Positions 6,044 to 64,000 of a DNA stretch of 64,000 nucleotides are shown one piece after another (position 1 is the first letter of the stretch; the number at the start of each line of letters is the position of its first letter). The stretch is from a virus. Where the stretch lies: the IMG/VR virus record IMGVR_UViG_3300032159_000001; one strand, written 5' to 3'. The position numbers and the translations under genes were made by a program. The notes below the pieces were generated by a model. The model did not search any database. It saw only the letters and a list, made by a program, of their open reading frames with translations, and was not told the origin of the DNA.

Positions 6044-6076
6044 AGAAGCCGCCGACTCTTGCTGTCGGCGGCTTCT
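6044..6076. terminator. 13-bp stem hairpin, terminator or processing site
   Basis: AGAAGCCGCCGAC-N7-GTCGGCGGCTTCT; A-tract on the 5' side only, so the U-tail would be on the - strand. Confidence 0.55.
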
Positions 6077-35214: not shown

Positions 35215-35246
35215 AGAAAAGGCCCCGTTTTCACGGGGCCTTTTCT
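35215..35246 (-). terminator. Intrinsic terminator after the major tail gene
   Basis: AGAAAAGGCCCCGT-N4-ACGGGGCCTTTTCT, followed by a U-rich tail on the - strand. Confidence 0.8.
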
Positions 35247-57328: not shown

Positions 57329-57672
57329 GACACATCATTCCCACAGGTGTTGTTCCGATCGCGACTGCAACAGCCAGAACTGCGGCAGTATCCGGTGTGA
57401 CGCGTTCAGGAACGTGGTGGCAGAGACGTGATCATTTAGGTTTTAAGTCCTATCGCACCGGCGAACCGCGATGTTCATTTCGTACCAAGAAGGTCCAACC
57501 GACCCCTCGACGAATGTCAAGAACCTCGGCCCTAAGAAAGCGCGCATCGAAGGCAAACTGGCCCACATATTCGTGTATGGCGGCCTCAACGAGCGCAGCC
57601 ACCCGACTTCGCGTCATCGGTCCGGTTCGGACCGCGACATTCTGTCCACAGCTTTTATAGGACAAAATACCT

Positions 57673-57777
57673 ATGACCGCGCAGGAAATCGCCAATCAGC
57701 TGCTTGCTGAGCACCAAGCCGCCCGTGAGGAGCGCCGCCGCGAGGCCCGCCCCTTTCGTCGTGTCCGCAACGCCTAG
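57673..57777 (+). CDS. 34-aa hypothetical protein
   Basis: AGGA SD; MTAQEIANQLLAEH. Confidence 0.45.
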   Translation: MTAQEIANQLLAEHQAAREERRREARPFRRVRNA

Positions 57778-57790
57778 TACGGATCGTACC
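57776..57790. promoter_or_regulatory. Motif A (1 mismatch), abutting an ATG
   Basis: AGTACG-GAT-CGTACC. Confidence 0.7.
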
Positions 57791-58198
57791 ATGACCCCTC
57801 TCATCGATGCCCCGCTTCCCATCGCACCTCAGCAGGTCTTCGACGCCGTCGTCGCGCATGCGGCCGGCATGACCAGCAAATCGCTCTTCGATCCTAAGAG
57901 CCGCAGCTCTGCCTGCGCCTACAGGGCACCGGACGGGAACGCCTGCTTCGTCGGGTGCCTGCTCACCGATCGCGAGGCGGCCGGCTGCGACCGGCCCTAC
58001 GATCCTCTCAGCGTCCGTGAACTCTACAGAGAGGGCCTCTTACCCGAACGCCTGAACCCGCACCGGGATCTGCTGCATAAGCTTCAGGAGGTTCACGACA
58101 GTTACGACATACCCGACTGGCCGAGCCTGCTTCGTGAGGTAGCCGACGACTATAACTTGTCGAGCACAGCGATCGACCAAGCTTTTTCGCACGCCTAA
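57791..58198 (+). CDS. Phage hypothetical protein
   Basis: QQVFDAVVAH..CAYRAPDGNACFVGCLL; ATG abuts motif A. Confidence 0.75.
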   Translation: MTPLIDAPLPIAPQQVFDAVVAHAAGMTSKSLFDPKSRSSACAYRAPDGNACFVGCLLTDREAAGCDRPYDPLSVRELYREGLLPERLNPHRDLLHKLQEVHDSYDIPDWPSLLREVADDYNLSSTAIDQAFSHA

Positions 58199-58205
58199 AG
58201 CCCGA

Positions 58206-58220
58206 GGTACGTTCCGTACC
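58206..58220. promoter_or_regulatory. Motif A, 10 bp from a motif B copy
   Basis: GGTACG-TTC-CGTACC. Confidence 0.8.
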
Positions 58221-58230
58221 ACTCACCTAA

Positions 58231-58245
58231 CCATATCGAATATGG
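58231..58245. promoter_or_regulatory. Motif B
   Basis: CCATATC-G-AATATGG, overlapping the SD. Confidence 0.75.
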
Positions 58246-58255
58246 AGGACAGATC

Positions 58256-58483
58256 ATGGCGACCTTCGTTTTTACGCAGCAGCCACGTAGGAAGAACAGC
58301 AACGAGCCGCTGACCTACACGATCACCGAGGCCACTGCCGAGCGGTCTCACGCAGGCACGCTCAAGAAGACGAAGAACCGCTGGCGCCTGAACTGGCGCG
58401 GCGTCGCCGCCGACTTCGACACCAAGATCCAGCTCCGGCGCCACTTCGCGCTGCTGGGCCACACGGTCGAGGGGCTGGCATGA
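58256..58483 (+). CDS. Hypothetical protein
   Basis: GGAGG SD overlapping motif B. Confidence 0.75.
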   Translation: MATFVFTQQPRRKNSNEPLTYTITEATAERSHAGTLKKTKNRWRLNWRGVAADFDTKIQLRRHFALLGHTVEGLA

Positions 58484-58740
58484 CGAAGTCATCGTCCCTC
58501 ACCGAGATCCAGCGCATCAACGGCGCCGGTCTCGCCCGCGGCTGGCACGCTGAGATGCTCCAGCGCGATGCAAATCAGGTCGGCCGCACCATGGCGACGA
58601 TCCACAACGAGCGTGTGGCTGGCGCCGCTGCCTTCAGCGTGCCTGCCGAGGCAATCGCGATCCGCGGCGGGCGCGTCCACTACCGCTTCCTCGACGGAAG
58701 CGAGACCAGCCACCCCTATGTGAAGCGGGAGCGTCCCTGA
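58480..58740 (+). CDS. Hypothetical protein
   Basis: Coupled start. Confidence 0.7.
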   Translation: MTKSSSLTEIQRINGAGLARGWHAEMLQRDANQVGRTMATIHNERVAGAAAFSVPAEAIAIRGGRVHYRFLDGSETSHPYVKRERP

Positions 58741-59027
58741 TGGTCACGCCCACCAAGCTCCCGCGCTGGAAGCGCATCTCGGCCGAGCGCTATCAGGAGA
58801 TGCGGGACATCCTCCCGCCGATCGACATCGCCGGTTCCGGCCGGTTCCTCGTCTCCGAGCCGATGAGCCATCGCAGGTGCCGGCGGCTCGACTTCGACTT
58901 CGTCTGCGCCGCCTACCAGGCCTTCGCCTGGATCGGGAACGAGCACTTCGAGTGCTGCGAGCCGCTCACCAGGTCCGAGCTGCGAGCCCTCGAGGTCGCT
59001 GAGATCCTGGAGAACGTCGATGCCTGA
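58740..59027 (+). CDS. Hypothetical protein
   Basis: Coupled start. Confidence 0.7.
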   Translation: MVTPTKLPRWKRISAERYQEMRDILPPIDIAGSGRFLVSEPMSHRRCRRLDFDFVCAAYQAFAWIGNEHFECCEPLTRSELRALEVAEILENVDA

Positions 59028-59427
59028 GTTCGTTCTCCAGGGTCGCGACGACCCGCGCTTCCAGGCGCTCGACAGCTTCACGCAGGCCTACATCGAGGCC
59101 GCGATCTTCACCGACGAGGAGCAGCTCGGCATCGACCAGCCCACCGCCGAGCTGCTGTCGGACCACACGTTCGCGGCCATAGTGGACGACTGCGCGCAGT
59201 TCCAGCGTTGGGCCAACCTCGATGCCGTTCCCGAGCATGCCCATGCCGGGCGCACGGGCATCCACGAGCAAGCCGGTCACGACTTCTGGATGACCCGCAA
59301 CGGGCACGGTGTCGGCTTCTGGGACGGCGACTGGATCGAGCCTCATGCCAACCGTCTCGACAACCTCTCCAAGAGGTTCGGCGAGTTCGATCTCTACCGG
59401 GGCGACGATGGCCAGATCCATCACTGA
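59020..59427 (+). CDS. Hypothetical protein
   Basis: GGAG SD; AGHDFWMTRNGHGVGFWD. Confidence 0.75.
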   Translation: MPEFVLQGRDDPRFQALDSFTQAYIEAAIFTDEEQLGIDQPTAELLSDHTFAAIVDDCAQFQRWANLDAVPEHAHAGRTGIHEQAGHDFWMTRNGHGVGFWDGDWIEPHANRLDNLSKRFGEFDLYRGDDGQIHH

Positions 59428-59656
59428 GCACGAGGCCGGCGACCGCCTGCCCCTCGTCCGCGCGCTCACCGAGATCGCGTGGGTGAACCTGCAGGCATCC
59501 TGGGACGCACCGAGCCCGCGGGTCGAGGCCATCCTCCTCACCAAGTCGCGCACCGCCGACGAGGCCGCGCGCGGCGTCCTGTTCGATCGCCTGGACCAGC
59601 TTAGCCCCGCGCACCGAGAGCTGGTCGGCGCCTGCACCAAGGAGATCACCCCATGA
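59408..59656 (+). CDS. Hypothetical protein
   Basis: Overlaps both neighbours. Confidence 0.55.
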   Translation: MARSITEHEAGDRLPLVRALTEIAWVNLQASWDAPSPRVEAILLTKSRTADEAARGVLFDRLDQLSPAHRELVGACTKEITP

Positions 59657-60087
59657 TCACGCCCAGAGAGCATGAAGCGCTCGTCACCGTCCGCGATGCC
59701 TTGGCCGCCGGCGAGTTCCGGCACAGCCGCATCACCGAGGGGCCGGACGGGCCGACATTCAACATGCGCAGCACCTGCCTCAGCGGTGACTGTGGCACGA
59801 TCGCCTGCATCGGTGGCTGGATGGCCATCACGATGCTGGGTCTGGCGAGGGAGAAGCCTGTCTCCTACGAGAACCAGACCCAGGTCTTCGACTTCGTCAC
59901 CGACTACGGCGACGGCGAACTCCTGCCTTCCAGCCCCTCCCTGAAGGTCCTCTTCTACCCGCCAGGGGCTCGCGAGGACGAAGAGTGGTGGGACTTCATC
60001 ACTCCGGCCTACGCCGTCGAGGCGATCGACAACTTCCTCCGTGACGGCGACCCGCGCTGGGGCGCGATCCGCCGTCGCATCACCTGA
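59653..60087 (+). CDS. Hypothetical protein
   Basis: AAGGAG SD; FNM..CGTIACIGGW. Confidence 0.75.
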   Translation: MITPREHEALVTVRDALAAGEFRHSRITEGPDGPTFNMRSTCLSGDCGTIACIGGWMAITMLGLAREKPVSYENQTQVFDFVTDYGDGELLPSSPSLKVLFYPPGAREDEEWWDFITPAYAVEAIDNFLRDGDPRWGAIRRRIT

Positions 60088-60119
60088 ATTCCACACCGAT
60101 AGCAGGTGGAGGCCACGTC

Positions 60120-60266
60120 GTGCCCACCCCGAAAGAGAAGGCGCTCGACGCCGCACGCTGGCGCTACCTGCGAGCCGCAGGCGGCCTGAGCCCGCGCACA
60201 GAAGCATTCACCAAGGCCCTCAAGGCCTATTGGGCCGATCTGCGGAGTATTCGCAATGATGGATGA
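60120..60266 (+). CDS. 48-aa hypothetical protein
   Basis: GGAGG SD plus GTG; not in the ORF track. Confidence 0.5.
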   Translation: MPTPKEKALDAARWRYLRAAGGLSPRTEAFTKALKAYWADLRSIRNDG

Positions 60267-60420
60267 CGAGCCCATCCGCTTCCGCAACTACTACCGCTGC
60301 GACGACTGCGACGTCGAGTGGTCCGACGACTGGTCCTGCTGCTGCGATGACGAATGCCCGTCTTGCGGCCGGGACTACACACCGACCCATAGCGAAGATC
60401 TTGAAGAGGAAACCTTCTGA
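60256..60420 (+). CDS. 54-aa acidic Cys-rich (zinc-ribbon-like) protein
   Basis: GGAG SD; CDDC..CCCDDECPSC; not in the ORF track. Confidence 0.65.
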   Translation: MMDDEPIRFRNYYRCDDCDVEWSDDWSCCCDDECPSCGRDYTPTHSEDLEEETF

Positions 60421-60578
60421 TGTTCCGCATCGAGCACCGAGATCACACCAAGCGCTGGAAGCGGTTCACCCGCGACCCTCGCTTCAACACCGAGCGTGCG
60501 GCCTGGGACTACATCGCCACCCTCGACCCGGACGGCATCGTCGACACGCAGCTGTTCCGGGTCATGCCCATCGAGTGA
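60420..60578 (+). CDS. 52-aa hypothetical protein
   Basis: GAGGA SD, TGATG coupling; not in the ORF track. Confidence 0.55.
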   Translation: MFRIEHRDHTKRWKRFTRDPRFNTERAAWDYIATLDPDGIVDTQLFRVMPIE

Positions 60579-60643
60579 CGCCTCGCCCCACGCAGCCGCC
60601 GGCTGCGCGAGATCCGTGGTTCATTTCGTACCAGGAGACCAAG

Positions 60644-60841
60644 ATGAGCAAGCCTATCGACGCCCACTACACCTTCCTCGACGTGAAGGAGGGCCGCCAG
60701 GAGCTTCGGACACGGCTCCAGGCCGGCGAGGAGATCAACGTGATCCTCAAGGGCAAGCTCTCCCGAGATCCCGCCGCCTGCAACGACGACGGCGTCTCGA
60801 TCGAGTTCACGGTCGAACTCGAGAGCGCCGAGGAGGTCTGA
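60644..60841 (+). CDS. Hypothetical protein
   Basis: AGGAG SD. Confidence 0.7.
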   Translation: MSKPIDAHYTFLDVKEGRQELRTRLQAGEEINVILKGKLSRDPAACNDDGVSIEFTVELESAEEV

Positions 60842-60905
60842 CCTCTCGTTCTGCACCGCACCCAGACCGCGGTGCAGGCCCGGATGCCAGAAGTTCAACT
60901 TGGAG
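60837..60905 (+). repeat. Gene-junction repeat element, copy 1
   Basis: TCTGACCTCTCGTT-[9-bp hairpin]-GCCCGGATGCCAGAAGTTC.ACTTGGAG. Confidence 0.85.
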
Positions 60906-60913
60906 ATCTTGAT

Positions 60914-61216
60914 ATGAAAGCCAGCGACATCACCCGCGTGGCCGACCTGCTCGATCAGCTCGCCCGTCATCGACGGAGCTTGCAAGGGCTCAGCCAGGTA
61001 CCGCTCGCCACCAACGGCGTCCATCTCGCCTTCCGCTACGAAGTGCCCGTGGAGGGGATCACGAAGCCGGAAAGGCCGGAGAAGGTCGTCTGCCACACCG
61101 ACTTCACGCCCGATGAGGTCGAGGGCTTCCGCAGCGAGGCCTCGCGCATCCTCACCGACAGGATCGGGCGCGTCTCGGCCGAGCTGCGCACGCTCGGGGT
61201 CAACCCGGACCTCTGA
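60914..61216 (+). CDS. Hypothetical protein
   Basis: GGAG SD from the repeat. Confidence 0.7.
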   Translation: MKASDITRVADLLDQLARHRRSLQGLSQVPLATNGVHLAFRYEVPVEGITKPERPEKVVCHTDFTPDEVEGFRSEASRILTDRIGRVSAELRTLGVNPDL

Positions 61217-61278
61217 CCTCTCGTTCTGCCCAGGTGCGGGACCTGGGCAGGCCCGGATGCCAGAAGTTCTACTTGGAG
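61212..61278 (+). repeat. Gene-junction repeat element, copy 2
   Basis: Same flanks as copy 1; 10-bp hairpin of different internal sequence. Confidence 0.85.
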
Positions 61279-61284
61279 GCGAAG

Positions 61285-61761
61285 ATGTCCGAGGAAATCG
61301 GCTACAGCATCACGATCGGCGGCAGCATCACGAAGGCGCAGTGGAAGCGCTTCTACGTCAAGTTCCGCAACGGGGACTACGACTACCCCAACCTCGACCG
61401 TGATCCCGGCACCAACCGTCTCACCGACTGCGGCAGCTGCAGCTACGGAGACACCAGCGACCTGCGCGCGCTCTGTCGCGAGTGCGGCCTCGCCTACGAG
61501 GCTCAGGCCGACGCCAAGTACGAGTACGACGGGGAGTTCTTCTGCTGGTTCCCTGGCATGGCGGCCGAGATGGAAGCGTTCGGCACGCAGGACGGCCGCC
61601 CCGCGATCCTGATCGAGGATCTGGTCAAGGTGGCCAACGCTGGCACCGACTTCCGGGAGTTCGCGCGGGGCTTCGAGCCGCTCGTCCGGCCAGTCCCGCC
61701 GCTCCTGATCGGCGGCGAGCCCCTCACCGAGTCCAACGCCTCGTGCCTGCACGACGACTGA
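61285..61761 (+). CDS. Hypothetical protein
   Basis: GGAGG SD from the repeat. Confidence 0.75.
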   Translation: MSEEIGYSITIGGSITKAQWKRFYVKFRNGDYDYPNLDRDPGTNRLTDCGSCSYGDTSDLRALCRECGLAYEAQADAKYEYDGEFFCWFPGMAAEMEAFGTQDGRPAILIEDLVKVANAGTDFREFARGFEPLVRPVPPLLIGGEPLTESNASCLHDD

Positions 61762-61780
61762 CAGGATCGGAGAACACCCC

Positions 61781-62230
61781 ATGACCAAGCGCACGTTCAT
61801 CTGCACCGTCGAACTCGACACCGAGCAGCCGGTCGATCCGCTCTACCACCGGAACGTGCCCAGCCTCGATCTGGGCGAGGACGCCATCTACACCCAGCTC
61901 AACGGCCTCCTGGACCACTCGCCCAACCTGCGGGTCTCGAGCGTCCGCGAGCAGATCGGCATCAGCTGGCTCGCACACCTCGGCAAGGACCTGAGCCAGC
62001 CCGAGTACGACGCCGTGATCGCTGGCCTGCGGCTGCTTGCCTGCGGCCTCGAGGACAAGATCGTCGAGCCGAACGACGGCGACATCGGGGACATGCTGAC
62101 CTGCGGAGGCCAGCACACGGGCCTGACCAGCGACGAAATCCACGACCTCTGCGACCGCCTTCTCACCGGCCCCGAGATCACGGCGGAGGAGCTTCTCTCC
62201 AAGCGTCGGATCCGCGAGACCATCGGCTAG
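61781..62230 (+). CDS. Hypothetical protein
   Basis: GGAG SD. Confidence 0.75.
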   Translation: MTKRTFICTVELDTEQPVDPLYHRNVPSLDLGEDAIYTQLNGLLDHSPNLRVSSVREQIGISWLAHLGKDLSQPEYDAVIAGLRLLACGLEDKIVEPNDGDIGDMLTCGGQHTGLTSDEIHDLCDRLLTGPEITAEELLSKRRIRETIG

Positions 62231-62258
62231 CCCGGATGCCAGGATCGGAGACCACACC

Positions 62259-62519
62259 ATGTCCCACTCTCCGTGGATGATCCACACGCAGCGTCAGCGC
62301 GAGCACCTCAAGCACTACGGGGCGCAGCACCTCGACAAGCAGACCATCAGCCACATGGCTCGAGAGGTACGCACGGACATCACGTTGACGGAAGAGTTCG
62401 TGCAGTCGCTCAAGCGCGCCGTGCCCGGCTCGGTAGATGACGTCATCGCCGAGTGCGAGCCTGAACTCGTCGAGGCCCGCGTATTTCTCGCAGAGTTAGA
62501 AGCACTGCTTGCCGCCTGA
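62259..62519 (+). CDS. Hypothetical protein
   Basis: GGAG SD. Confidence 0.7.
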   Translation: MSHSPWMIHTQRQREHLKHYGAQHLDKQTISHMAREVRTDITLTEEFVQSLKRAVPGSVDDVIAECEPELVEARVFLAELEALLAA

Positions 62520-62544
62520 CCTGCCCGAGGTCCGTCACCGCCAG

Positions 62545-62559
62545 CCATATCCGATATGG
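62545..62559. promoter_or_regulatory. Motif B
   Basis: CCATATC-C-GATATGG, overlapping the SD. Confidence 0.75.
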
Positions 62560-62569
62560 GAGCGCCGCC

Positions 62570-63043
62570 ATGGCCTTTCACAGCCACGTCTACAATCGAG
62601 CCGATCACGACGAGCGCTACCCGCTGGGCTTGCCCTGGTGCCACGAGGCCGGCGTCGAGCAGCACTTCTTCGCCACCGAGACCGAGGCCTGCGCTGCGCA
62701 GCGGGACTACCGGCGCTGGAACGGCCGGGACCCGGAGACTGGAGAGGTCCCCGACCTTGTCGGGCAGCGGATGCGCGTCAAGCACGACCACAGTCTCGTT
62801 GGCCGTGTCTCAGAGCATGGCCGGGGGTACATCACGATCCAGGTTCATGACACGAACCCGATCACCCGCACGTCCGACGCATTCGAGCCGGCGCCGCCCG
62901 ACCCGCTCGTCGAGGCGCTGCGCCTCGTGTGCGAGCTGGCCGAGGGCAACGTCGCCGATGCCCGCGACGACGGGCGGGAGGAACACGACCGCCAGTGCGC
63001 CGCCCTCGACCTCGTGACGAAGCATCTGGAGGAGCTGTCGTGA
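62570..63043 (+). CDS. Hypothetical protein
   Basis: GGGAG SD overlapping motif B. Confidence 0.7.
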   Translation: MAFHSHVYNRADHDERYPLGLPWCHEAGVEQHFFATETEACAAQRDYRRWNGRDPETGEVPDLVGQRMRVKHDHSLVGRVSEHGRGYITIQVHDTNPITRTSDAFEPAPPDPLVEALRLVCELAEGNVADARDDGREEHDRQCAALDLVTKHLEELS

Positions 63044-63618
63044 GCATCGCCAGCAAGATCGCCCACCACGCCGGCGCCATCGAACTGGCCGCCCAACGAC
63101 TCGACAAGAGCGGCTTCCCCGCGCTCGCGGACGGCTGCACCAAGGCAGCGGCCTTCCTCCGCGCCGGTCTGGAGTTGGAGAGGCCCCGGATGCTGGAGGT
63201 CATCGAGAACCTTCGCCATCAGCTCGCTGCCTGGGTGGAGATCGCGGACGACGAGGACGACCGTCAAGAGGATCACGACGCCATCACGGCGGCCGATGCG
63301 ATCCTGGCCGGTAAGACCCCGGCCATCGAGACGCCCCGGATGCTCGTGCTGAGCACGGCGCACATCTCGGAGTCGACCAACGATATGTTCGACTTCAACA
63401 CCGACGACGTGCCTCAGTTCTTCCCCAAGCACCCTTGGGGTTCGCCGAGTGAGGGGCTGGGCTGGCTGATCCCTATCGTCGGCAACGAGCCGTTCCCGCA
63501 TACCTGCCCGGAGGATCTCCGTGCCATCCGCGCCCTGGCCGAGGCCAACGGCTGCACGTGGATCATGCTCGACCGCGACGCCGATGTCGTAGATGGTCTA
63601 CCGATCTACGAGTGGTAG
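63040..63618 (+). CDS. Protein with C-terminal DUF5983-like domain
   Basis: LVLSTAHI..GWLI..P.DL..A...GCTWIMLDRD..LPIYEW. Confidence 0.7.
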   Translation: MSIASKIAHHAGAIELAAQRLDKSGFPALADGCTKAAAFLRAGLELERPRMLEVIENLRHQLAAWVEIADDEDDRQEDHDAITAADAILAGKTPAIETPRMLVLSTAHISESTNDMFDFNTDDVPQFFPKHPWGSPSEGLGWLIPIVGNEPFPHTCPEDLRAIRALAEANGCTWIMLDRDADVVDGLPIYEW

Positions 63619-63630
63619 GAGACGACGACG

Positions 63631-63846
63631 ATGCCTGAGCCCGAGACCGTATCCCTGAAGCCTGGCGACACCGTTCGCCTGGTGTCCGGTGGTCCGCTGA
63701 TGACCACCGTTCCAGGGTACGTTTCTTTTCGGATGGACGGTGTCGTTCGGTGGTGCTGCGTCTGGCACGATGCAGCTGGTCATTATCATGAAGCCGATGT
63801 CCCGGAAGAGGCGCTCGTGAAGGAGGTCGTGAATGAGCAGACCTGA
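63631..63846 (+). CDS. DUF2158 (YodC-like) protein
   Basis: LKPGDTVRLVSGGPLMT..CVWHD..VPEEAL. Confidence 0.8.
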   Translation: MPEPETVSLKPGDTVRLVSGGPLMTTVPGYVSFRMDGVVRWCCVWHDAAGHYHEADVPEEALVKEVVNEQT

Positions 63847-64000
63847 TCCGTTGACCGCCTATGCTGCGACCAACGGTCACGACATTTTTCATGGGACAAT
63901 CAGACTCTCGCGGAGCGAAGCCGAGCGAGCCTGGGCTCGCGATTTCGGCAACATCAGACCGGGCGACGACTCGGTATCGATGGAGATCCTCGATAGGATC
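63833..64000 (+). CDS. Hypothetical protein, 3'-truncated
   Basis: GGAGG SD, open to the window end. Confidence 0.5.
   Translation, partial: MSRPDPLTAYAATNGHDIFHGTIRLSRSEAERAWARDFGNIRPGDDSVSMEILDRI

What the first reader, a model, noticed from the sequence alone, without database searches (positions are those of the whole stretch)
60837..62260. Repeated gene-junction element with a covarying hairpin: possible structured RNA or cassette-shuffling site
Seen: two copies (60837-60905, 61212-61278) begin at the upstream stop codon and end in the next SD. Flanks are near-identical (TCTGACCTCTCGTTCTGC; GCAGGCCCGGATGCCAGAAGTTC.ACTTGGAG), but the hairpin interior differs while staying fully paired: CTGCACCGC-N9-GCGGTGCAG versus CTGCCCAGGT-N5-ACCTGGGCAG. 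TTCT/AGAA and GGC/GCC could close a three-way junction. A partial copy GCCCGGATGCCAG is at 62230, and CAGGATCGGAGA is shared by the junctions at 61762 and 62240. Inference: pairing preserved despite sequence change points to selection on RNA or ssDNA structure (antitermination, processing or translational enhancer); the identical flanks could also let accessory genes be gained or lost as cassettes.
Basis: partly seen in the sequence, partly recalled or inferred. Interest (0 to 1): 0.74.

Follow-up and report, generated by a model that had tools for sequence, protein, structure and literature searches.

The report
Duplicated hairpin-plus-box gene linker
Two neighbouring gaps between small unknown genes of a Methylobacterium prophage carry the same about 70-base linker, with a strong hairpin whose core differs between the copies; it is real but local, has no relatives in any collection searched, and belongs to a known kind of phage gene-junction module.

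Summary
[quoted passage not shown] Their flanks are exact, and each holds a perfect GC-rich hairpin (9 bp or 10 bp) with a different core. The 13-mer GCCCGGATGCCAG recurs at 62230, and CAGGATCGGAGA is shared at 61762 and 62240.

Only the apical hairpins beat chance (z -4.1 and -4.4). The proposed three-way junction, or any pairing between the flanks, is no better than shuffled flanks. With two sequences, covariation has no statistical power.

I found no further copy in:
- the 84-kb prophage itself
- IMG/VR
- JGI metagenomes
- 145 Methylobacterium genomes
- two related phage-plasmids
- Rfam

A covariance model found nothing either. Genes A, B and C have no relatives. The prophage is 100% identical in every assembly compared, so gene gain or loss at the repeat could not be seen.

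The hairpins lack the U-run that this phage's true terminators have. Other junctions of this phage and of a relative share the layout stop, hairpin, ribosome site.

Best reading (about 45%): an intercistronic mRNA module, copied when a gene was inserted. It resembles T4 PeSLs and cluster K ESAS/SAS. This scan has noted the same kind of element on other phage DNA.

The parts
60837..60905 (+). Linker copy 1, between gene A and gene B. It consists of TC+TGA stop, CCTCTCGTT, the hairpin, the 13-mer box, AAGTTCAACTT and GGAG.
   Evidence: the covariance model scores it 96.5-100.5 bits
60851..60877 (+). Apical hairpin 1. It has 9 perfect pairs and a 9-nt loop, with no U-run after it.
   Evidence: (z -4.13)
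61212..61278 (+). Linker copy 2, between gene B and gene C. The flanks are the same as in copy 1 and the hairpin core is different.
61226..61250 (+). Apical hairpin 2. It has 10 perfect pairs and a 5-nt loop, with no U-run after it.
   Evidence: (z -4.41)
62230..62242 (+). Third exact copy of the 13-mer box GCCCGGATGCCAG, at the D|E junction. It has no hairpin and is fused to the other ribosome-site module.
   Evidence: family D6
61759..61786 (+). C|D junction. This is the second repeated ribosome-site module (stop, CAGGATCGGAGA, 7 nt, ATG).
   Evidence: family D8 (24 of 28 identical to 62237-62264)
62237..62264 (+). D|E junction copy of the second ribosome-site module.
   Evidence: family D8
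60644..60841 (+). Gene A, 65 aa. It matches no protein family. Its stop codon is part of copy 1.
60914..61216 (+). Gene B, 100 aa, with no relatives. It is flanked by the two linker copies.
61285..61761 (+). Gene C, 158 aa, Cys-rich, with no relatives.
61781..62230 (+). Gene D, 149 aa. It is the only gene of the block with a distant DNA match, in Brevundimonas jumbo phages.
62259..62519 (+). Gene E, 86 aa, the last gene of the block. It is followed by a motif B palindrome at 62545-62559.
   Evidence: I19; D1
60591..60607 (+). An unrelated GC-rich hairpin 12 nt after the stop of the preceding gene. It is followed by the GTTCATTTCGTACC palindrome-like site at 60619 and the ribosome site of gene A. 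The layout is the same as in the linker, but the sequence is different.
   Evidence: I7; D3

Best explanation
The element is a promoter-less intercistronic linker that acts on the polycistronic + strand message of a block of five small accessory genes (A-E, 60644-62519). It has four parts. The first is a 9-nt pyrimidine-rich stretch straight after the stop codon. The second is a stable hairpin in which only the pairing matters. The third is a sequence-specific 13-nt box. The fourth is the ribosome-binding region of the next gene.

Inferred mechanism: the hairpin is not a terminator. It acts as a barrier to 3'-to-5' decay, or as a pause or attenuation point, so that the segments of the operon message get different lifetimes. 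This is how the intercistronic hairpin of the Rhodobacter puf operon works. The box and ribosome region set translation of the next gene, or are the site of a cut or of a bound factor.

The two copies most likely arose when gene B was placed between A and C by recombination within such linkers, or by duplication of the linker. The hairpin core was then replaced rather than mutated step by step.

Shown: the repeat, its exact borders at the stop codon and the ribosome site, the two significant hairpins, the lack of a U-run, and the recurrence of the layout elsewhere. Inferred: action as RNA, the decay-barrier role, and the origin by recombination.
For: The borders coincide with the stop codon and the ribosome site on the coding strand. 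Both hairpins are far more stable than shuffles, and chance would rarely rebuild them.

This phage's clear terminators carry A/T runs (6044-6076 and 35215-35246). These hairpins are followed by GCCCGG instead, and the terminator scan finds nothing here.

The same layout, with unrelated hairpin sequences, occurs at 60591 and at three junctions outside the window. It also occurs at about eight junctions of the related plasmid-prophage pMaq22A_3p. So position and structure recur while sequence does not.

The box occurs three times, always 16-23 nt before a start codon, and once without the hairpin. That points to a separate, sequence-specific part.

Contigs from two RNA libraries of different studies bridge copy 2 (61145-61410 and 61138-61395). 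This is a weak hint that the message reads through it.

Intercistronic decay-barrier hairpins are established in an alphaproteobacterium: Klug 1987 and Chen 1988, as cited in PMC10064930.
Against: There is no direct RNA evidence. The RNA-library pieces are contigs and may be contaminating DNA. The stems contain only Watson-Crick pairs, so they do not say whether RNA or DNA is the active form.

The whole 84-88-nt junctions are not more stable than shuffles (z about -0.8). There are only two copies and no homologues, so conservation cannot be shown.

Flanks that are 49 of 50 identical beside a wholly different core fit a recent recombination event at least as well as long-term selection.
Confidence: 0.45

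Rival explanations
1. DNA-level recombination linker, like a PeSL or a modular 'linker'. The identical flanks exist because they serve as short homologies at which accessory genes are inserted, deleted or exchanged between related phages. The hairpin is carried along, for example as the old terminator of each incoming gene. Any effect on RNA is secondary.
For: Gene B has no relatives and is bracketed by the two copies. All four junctions of the A-E block are mosaics of a few shared modules. The core was swapped wholesale while the flanks stayed 49 of 50 identical. PeSLs show that this process exists and runs from stop codon to start codon (PMC2839356).
Against: No second phage or genome carries these flanks. 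That includes 145 Methylobacterium species genomes and two related phage-plasmids. So no partner population for exchange is visible. No assembly shows B missing or another gene in its place. The longest unbroken homology is only 18 and 31 nt.
Confidence: 0.2
2. A neutral relic. One recent local duplication or illegitimate recombination copied an ordinary intergenic region, and the two hairpins are unrelated leftovers. Nothing about the repeat itself is functional.
For: There are only two full copies, confined to 1.4 kb of one prophage. There are no homologues anywhere. The flanks are nearly identical, as expected for a young duplication. Covariation has no statistical support.
Against: Both cores independently form perfect stems continuing the shared CTGC/GCAG base. 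A young duplication should have near-identical cores as well. The repeat borders coincide exactly with stop codon and ribosome site. The box persists in a third junction.
Confidence: 0.2
3. Palindromic DNA operators. Each hairpin is the binding site of a dimeric DNA-binding protein, as proposed for the other palindrome families of this phage.
For: The genome is rich in intergenic palindromes placed just before genes (and earlier notes e1-5355637 and e1-5355644). In the relative, some junction hairpins contain the CCATATC-type palindrome.
Against: Each of the two palindromes occurs once in the genome, and they differ from each other. Two dedicated regulators would therefore be needed. The arms are GC-only with 5- and 9-nt centres, unlike the 15-bp families.
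Confidence: 0.07
4. An attC-like single-strand recombination site, making this a cassette array without an integrase. The folded bottom strand would be cut and exchanged by an integron-type recombinase.
For: It is a roughly 60-nt imperfect palindrome placed after a promoter-less gene, with conserved outer arms and a variable tip. As single-stranded DNA, the bottom strand folds better than the top strand (z -3.5 versus -1.9).
Against: The arms that pair are TCTG/CAGA, not the RYYYAAC/GTTRRRY boxes. The GTT-containing register pairs poorly (reading). Arm pairing is at chance level. Conservation continues past the would-be crossover point into the next gene's ribosome site. The prophage has no integron integrase. 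From my own knowledge, integrons are reported absent from Alphaproteobacteria (Cury et al. 2016); I did not check this here.
Confidence: 0.03

Closest known systems
PeSLs (promoter-early stem-loops) of T4-type phages (Arbiol et al. 2010, PMC2839356; Comeau et al. 2014, PMC4122927)
   Same: [quoted passage not shown] Both contain a stem-loop whose sequence varies between copies, end in a ribosome site, and flank small genes without relatives in an accessory region.
   Different: PeSLs carry a strong sigma-70 promoter with an AT-rich upstream part, and their stem-loops terminate transcription. They occur in dozens of copies, and indels and mini-circles at them were shown. Here no promoter-like site was found, there is no U-run, there are two copies, and no variant arrangement was seen.
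SAS/ESAS (start-associated sequences) of cluster K mycobacteriophages (Pope et al. 2011, PMC3203893)
   Same: Both have a conserved asymmetric sequence that includes the ribosome site just before the start codon. In both it is preceded by an imperfect inverted repeat around a variable centre, and the function is unknown but thought to concern translation.
   Different: The SAS sequence GGGATAGGAGCCC is unrelated. ESAS arms are the conserved part and occur 11-19 times per genome across a whole phage cluster. Here the conserved flanks do not pair above chance, the variable centre is itself the hairpin, and no relative carries the element.
[quoted passage not shown] 1987; Chen et al. 1988; cited in PMC10064930)
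   Same: Both are a stable hairpin without a terminator U-run, lying between cistrons of one message in an alphaproteobacterial setting. This is the model for the mechanism proposed here.
   Different: The puf hairpin is a single host element with measured effects on mRNA half-life. Here nothing has been measured, and the hairpin comes with conserved sequence-specific flanks.
Hairpin-plus-box junctions noted earlier by this scan in other phages (e1-1069485, e1-1965243, e1-5351993)
   Same: Both show a GC-rich hairpin without a U-run, followed at once by a short fixed box and a ribosome site, between small genes of unknown function. These are unchecked AI notes.
   Different: Those families have many copies and relatives in which genes were swapped at the module. 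This one has two and a half copies and no relatives.

Membership tests
PeSL (T4-type phages) | Sigma-70-type early promoter (-35, -10, AT-rich upstream part) inside the module | tested here: not met
   The consensus scan of 57500-64000 finds no promoter-like site in or near either copy. The module is GC-rich throughout.
PeSL (T4-type phages) | Stem-loop plus ribosome site filling the gap from stop to start | tested here: met
PeSL (T4-type phages) | Many copies flanking genes without relatives, with indels or mini-circles whose crossovers lie in the module | tested here: inconclusive
   There are two full copies and one partial copy, and they do flank genes without relatives. All assemblies compared are identical in gene order. 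Circles need PCR.
SAS/ESAS (cluster K mycobacteriophages) | 13-bp SAS GGGATAGGAGCCC 3-8 bp before the start, 11-19 copies per genome | tested here: not met
   The sequence is different, and there are only 2-3 copies.
SAS/ESAS (cluster K mycobacteriophages) | Conserved imperfect 17-bp inverted repeats around a variable spacer | tested here: not met
   The conserved flanks pair no better than shuffled flanks. The pairing lies in the variable centre.
Integron attC site | Paired R''/R' boxes RYYYAAC / GTTRRRY | tested here: not met
   The paired register is TCTG/CAGA. GTCTGAC against GTTCAAC gives 4 Watson-Crick pairs plus 1 wobble out of 7 (read).
Integron attC site | Integron integrase nearby, or an array of many attC sites | tested here: not met
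   TIGR02249 has no match in the 84-kb prophage, and there are two sites only.
Integron attC site | Score above threshold with the IntegronFinder attC covariance model | not testable with these tools
   The model is not in Rfam. An Rfam scan of 58000-64000 gave no relevant match.
Intrinsic (Rho-independent) terminator | GC-rich stem followed by a U-run | tested here: not met
   The stems are followed by GCCCGGAUG, and the scan finds none here. The phage's own terminators at 6044 and 35215 do have the runs.
RNase III processing site (T7 early type) | About 20 bp or more of mostly double-stranded RNA with an internal bubble (from my own knowledge of RNase III substrates) | tested here: not met
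   The perfect stems are 9-10 bp, and the extension into the flanks is at chance level.
Intercistronic mRNA decay-barrier hairpin (puf type) | Stable hairpin between cistrons of one message, without terminator or promoter | tested here: met
   Read-through is only hinted at by RNA-library contigs.
Intercistronic mRNA decay-barrier hairpin (puf type) | The upstream segment is more stable than the downstream segment, depending on the hairpin | not testable with these tools
   This needs half-life measurements. All runs that hold the DNA are kept as contigs only.

The most novel reading that the evidence does not exclude
The linker is the visible tip of a promoter-less 'hairpin plus box' cassette system in temperate alphaproteobacterial phages. 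In this reading, single accessory genes move between phages by recombination in the linker. The hairpin cores are kept different so that adjacent linkers do not delete the gene between them. The first 12 nt after the stop codon (TGACCTCTCGTT) would be distantly related to the 34-copy junction repeat TAACCTCTTGTT(AAC) of Brevundimonas jumbo phages, which flanks the only homologue of gene D.
Probability: 0.12. Interest if true: 0.5.

Novelty: new variant of a known kind. Interest (0 to 1): 0.27.

Why it matters
If the linker works as proposed, it would be a compact, promoter-less signal that tunes expression of individual accessory genes inside one phage message in a high-GC alphaproteobacterium. 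Post-transcriptional control of phage genes is barely studied in such hosts. If it also mediates gene insertion, it would be another example of the 'linker' sequences long postulated for modular phage evolution. As it stands, it is a two-copy local repeat in one prophage, without relatives. Its main value is as one more case of a recurring architecture, not as a new system.

Tried and rejected
- **Three-way junction or extended basal helix.** The isolated element folds as one long irregular hairpin, but 68% of flank shuffles fold as well, so I rejected it.
- **Covariation statistics.** With two sequences they have no power.
- **Known RNA families.** Nothing relevant in Rfam at E up to 1.
- **Promoter or terminator.** None found.
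- **CsrA-type control through the GGA motifs.** No CsrA gene in the prophage or in 5 Methylobacterium genomes.
- **Pairing of the box or flanks with 16S rRNA.** No better than shuffles.
- **Translational coupling.** The idea was that CCUCUC after the stop masks the next ribosome site. The predicted partners of the ribosome site differ between copies and windows, and CCUCUC is not among the main ones.
- **UGA read-through or selenocysteine-type recoding.** A and B are in frame across 24 open codons, but B and C are not (71 nt), so the reading is not consistent.
- **Small ORF from the AUG inside the box.** Frames and lengths differ at the three sites.
- **attC.** See the membership test.
- **Searches for more copies.** All hits were chance matches inside coding sequence:
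  - IMG/VR patterns
  - JGI metagenomes
  - 145 Methylobacterium genomes, by pattern, by DNA and by covariance model (best 25 bits, E 0.05 per genome)
  - plasmids pVL1_2 and pMaq22A_3p and the Brevundimonas phage
- **Protein relatives of A, B, C and D.** These would have led to other junctions, but none was usable. P0011 and P0012 are low-coverage chimeric contigs of the same sequence.
- **RNA end mapping from public runs.** Every run is kept as contigs. Uncovered stretches and the small shares held by RNA libraries say nothing.
- **Caveat.** The collection searches may leave out records of this genome and its near-identical kin.
Full report
**Setting.** The window is the minus strand of bases 381-64380 of an 84,125-base virus record with 65% G+C. 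In window orientation, the record starts with an integrase gene and ends in a tRNA gene, so it is an integrated prophage. The host gene beside it is closest to Methylobacterium, at 75% identity at best. This agrees with earlier notes on this genome. The finding lies in the last 4 kb, in a run of about twenty small + strand genes (gene calls). Most of them overlap or abut. The gaps of 28 nt or more are:
- 58198/58256
- 60087/60120
- 60578/60644
- 60841/60914
- 61216/61285
- 62230/62259
- 62519/62570

- The 18-nt left flank and the 23-nt right flank each occur exactly twice in the window and in the whole record, and in no shuffle.
- The aligned copies (60837-60905 and 61212-61278) differ only in the hairpin core and at one base.
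- Each copy begins with the last two bases of the final sense codon plus the TGA of the upstream gene. Gene A is 60644-60841 and gene B is 60914-61216.
- Each copy ends in the GGAG that lies 8 or 5 nt before the next ATG.
- The anatomy is the same in both: stop, CCTCTCGTT (9 nt), hairpin (27 or 25 nt), GCCCGGATGCCAG (13 nt), AAGTTC-N-ACTT, GGAG.
- The 13-mer occurs a third time at 62230, directly after the stop of gene D. Three exact copies compare with 0.01 expected.
- At 62230 the 13-mer is fused to a second ribosome-site module, CAGGATCGGAGA plus 7 nt. That module also forms the C|D junction (24 of 28 identical).
- All four junctions of the A-E block are therefore mosaics of a few modules. 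None of these modules occurs anywhere else in the 84 kb.

**Structure.**
- The two apical hairpins are strongly non-random. Their energies are -17.6 and -21.2 kcal/mol, with z -4.1 and -4.4 and 0 of 200 shuffles as stable.
- They share the outer CTGC/GCAG pairs. Their cores, ACCGC...GCGGT and CCAGGT...ACCTGG, and their loops are different.
- A random core of the same composition would continue the stem that far with probability 0.003 and 0.0008. A hairpin is therefore demanded or produced at this spot.
- This is replacement, not stepwise covariation. The flanks are 49 of 50 identical, while the cores are about as different as unrelated sequences.
- On the eight pairs that can be aligned, only two change on both sides, and 130 of 500 shuffles do as well.
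Cut out on its own, the element folds as one long irregular hairpin, with UCUG/CAGA at the base. Shuffled flanks fold as well or better in 68% of trials.
- The full 84-88-nt junctions are not unusually stable (z about -0.8).
- Only the apical hairpin is supported. The flanks should be regarded as single-stranded, sequence-specific parts.

**What it is not.**
- It is not a terminator of the usual kind. The phage's clear terminators (6044-6076 and 35215-35246) have A and T runs on either side, whereas these stems are followed by GCCCGG. The scan finds no terminator or promoter here.
- It matches no Rfam family.
- It is not an attC site by the features I could test. The pairing register lacks the AAC/GTT boxes. 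Conservation runs on into the next gene's ribosome site. No integron integrase is present.
- Several RNA-level ideas failed:
  - There is no CsrA in phage or host.
  - There is no special complementarity to 16S rRNA.
  - There is no consistent masking of the ribosome site by the CCUCUC after the stop.
- Read-through of UGA would fuse A to B (75 nt, open frame) but not B to C (71 nt).

**Search for relatives.**
- Exact and gapped patterns in IMG/VR and in JGI metagenomes returned only chance matches inside coding sequence.
- In 145 Methylobacterium species genomes, the 23-mer with up to 3 mismatches gave three coding-sequence hits, against four for the reversed control.
- BLAST with 3.5 kb of the region gave only 30-70-nt fragments.
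- A covariance model built from the two copies (69 positions, 8 pairs) scores them at 100.5 and 96.5 bits. It reaches only 25 bits (E 0.05 per genome) elsewhere in the genus. It finds nothing in the two related phage-plasmids or in the Brevundimonas phage.
- Genes A, B and C have no family and no relatives.
- The same prophage turns up in more than 100 blocks of the assembly index, from very different habitats. The three loci compared are 100% identical, and the 24 longest contigs read per look-up all share one gene order.
- Gain or loss of a gene at the repeat could therefore be neither seen nor excluded.

**Context that helps.**
- The layout recurs with unrelated hairpins: stop, about 10 nt, perfect GC-rich hairpin without a U-run, about 20-35 nt, ribosome site, start.
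- It is seen at 60591-60607 and at three junctions in the part of the record outside the window.
- It is also seen at about eight junctions of the early region of pMaq22A_3p. That is a Methylobacterium aquaticum plasmid-prophage sharing two early proteins with this phage at 32-44% identity.
- Perfect hairpins of 8 bp or more are about four times as frequent in the record as in shuffles (59 against 11-21).
- Structure and position thus recur in this phage group while sequence does not. That is what a structure-only RNA signal predicts.
- Contigs from two RNA libraries of different studies bridge copy 2. This is compatible with read-through, but they could be DNA.

**Most likely explanation.** I put about 45% on a promoter-less intercistronic module that acts on the message.
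- The hairpin would be a barrier to 3' exonucleases, or a pause point, that gives operon segments different lifetimes. This is established for the puf operon of Rhodobacter (references in PMC10064930).
- The box plus ribosome region would serve translation or processing of the next gene.
- The duplication with swapped cores is best explained by insertion of gene B through recombination in such linkers.
- The rivals are a purely DNA-level recombination linker (20%), a neutral relic (20%), palindromic operators (7%) and an attC-like site (3%).

**Comparison with known systems.**
- The closest are the PeSLs of T4-type phages (PMC2839356 and PMC4122927) and the SAS/ESAS repeats of cluster K mycobacteriophages (PMC3203893).
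- The element works like them in layout. It is not a member of either family, because it has no promoter, the sequence is different, the pairing lies in the variable centre, and there are only two copies.
- This scan has already noted hairpin-plus-box junctions of the same kind in other phages. Those are unchecked notes.

**Verdict.** The feature is real and well delimited, but it is local. It is a new variant of a known kind, and its interest is modest.

Noticed in passing
L257 and L258 (ON529851.1, record 50-84 kb); L256:419-1766: Brevundimonas jumbo phage vB_BpoS-Marchewka holds the only DNA match to gene D. It carries 34 same-strand copies of gTTAACCTCTTGTTAAC, then 8-9 nt, then CTAGGGT or CTATGGT, then a variable and often hairpin-forming stretch, a ribosome site and ATG, all at gene junctions. 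This looks like a CtrA-box-shaped (TTAA-N7-TTAA) promoter repeated PeSL-style. Its core resembles the first 12 nt of the linker here (10 of 12, in register with the stop codon), but the TTAA half-sites are not kept.
   Followed up: partly
window 60839-60913: Genes A and B are in the same reading frame, separated only by one UGA (followed by C) and 24 open codons. Read-through would give an A-linker-B fusion. The B-C junction is out of frame, so this is probably incidental.
   Followed up: partly
window 60618-60636 and 57473-57490: The palindrome-like site GTTCATTTCGTACCA(A/G)GA is repeated and runs straight into the ribosome site (AGGAGA) of gene A. That leaves no room for a transcript start between the site and the ribosome-binding sequence. 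At these places the 'motif A' family may act on translation or as an operator inside a message, not as part of a promoter.
   Followed up: no
L252 (NZ_AP014707.1, record 55000-70000), junctions at locus 4809, 6014, 8893, 10032, 13041, 14841: The related plasmid-prophage pMaq22A_3p has strong perfect hairpins 5-18 nt after the stop codon at most gaps between its small early genes. Two of them (locus 6014 and 10032) are CCATAT-type (motif B-like) palindromes extended into 11-bp or longer stems. One junction (locus 10808) carries TAAC-N7-TAAC.
   Followed up: partly
window 63040-63618: The 192-aa protein near the attachment end has a DUF5983 C-terminal domain (E 1.7e-20). It has a 42%-identical relative on Methylobacterium indicum plasmid pVL1_2.
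   Followed up: partly
window 60400-62600 in public runs: The identical prophage DNA is held by runs labelled plant, groundwater, bat, oil-field and marine-sediment metagenomes, from many studies. This pattern suggests a widespread or reagent-borne Methylobacterium strain.
   Followed up: no
window 60808-60847 and 61804-61843: The C-terminus of gene A (FTVELESAEE) and the N-terminus of gene D (CTVELDTEQP) share 70% of 40 nt in the same codon register. This may be chance or a trace of an old recombination.
   Followed up: no
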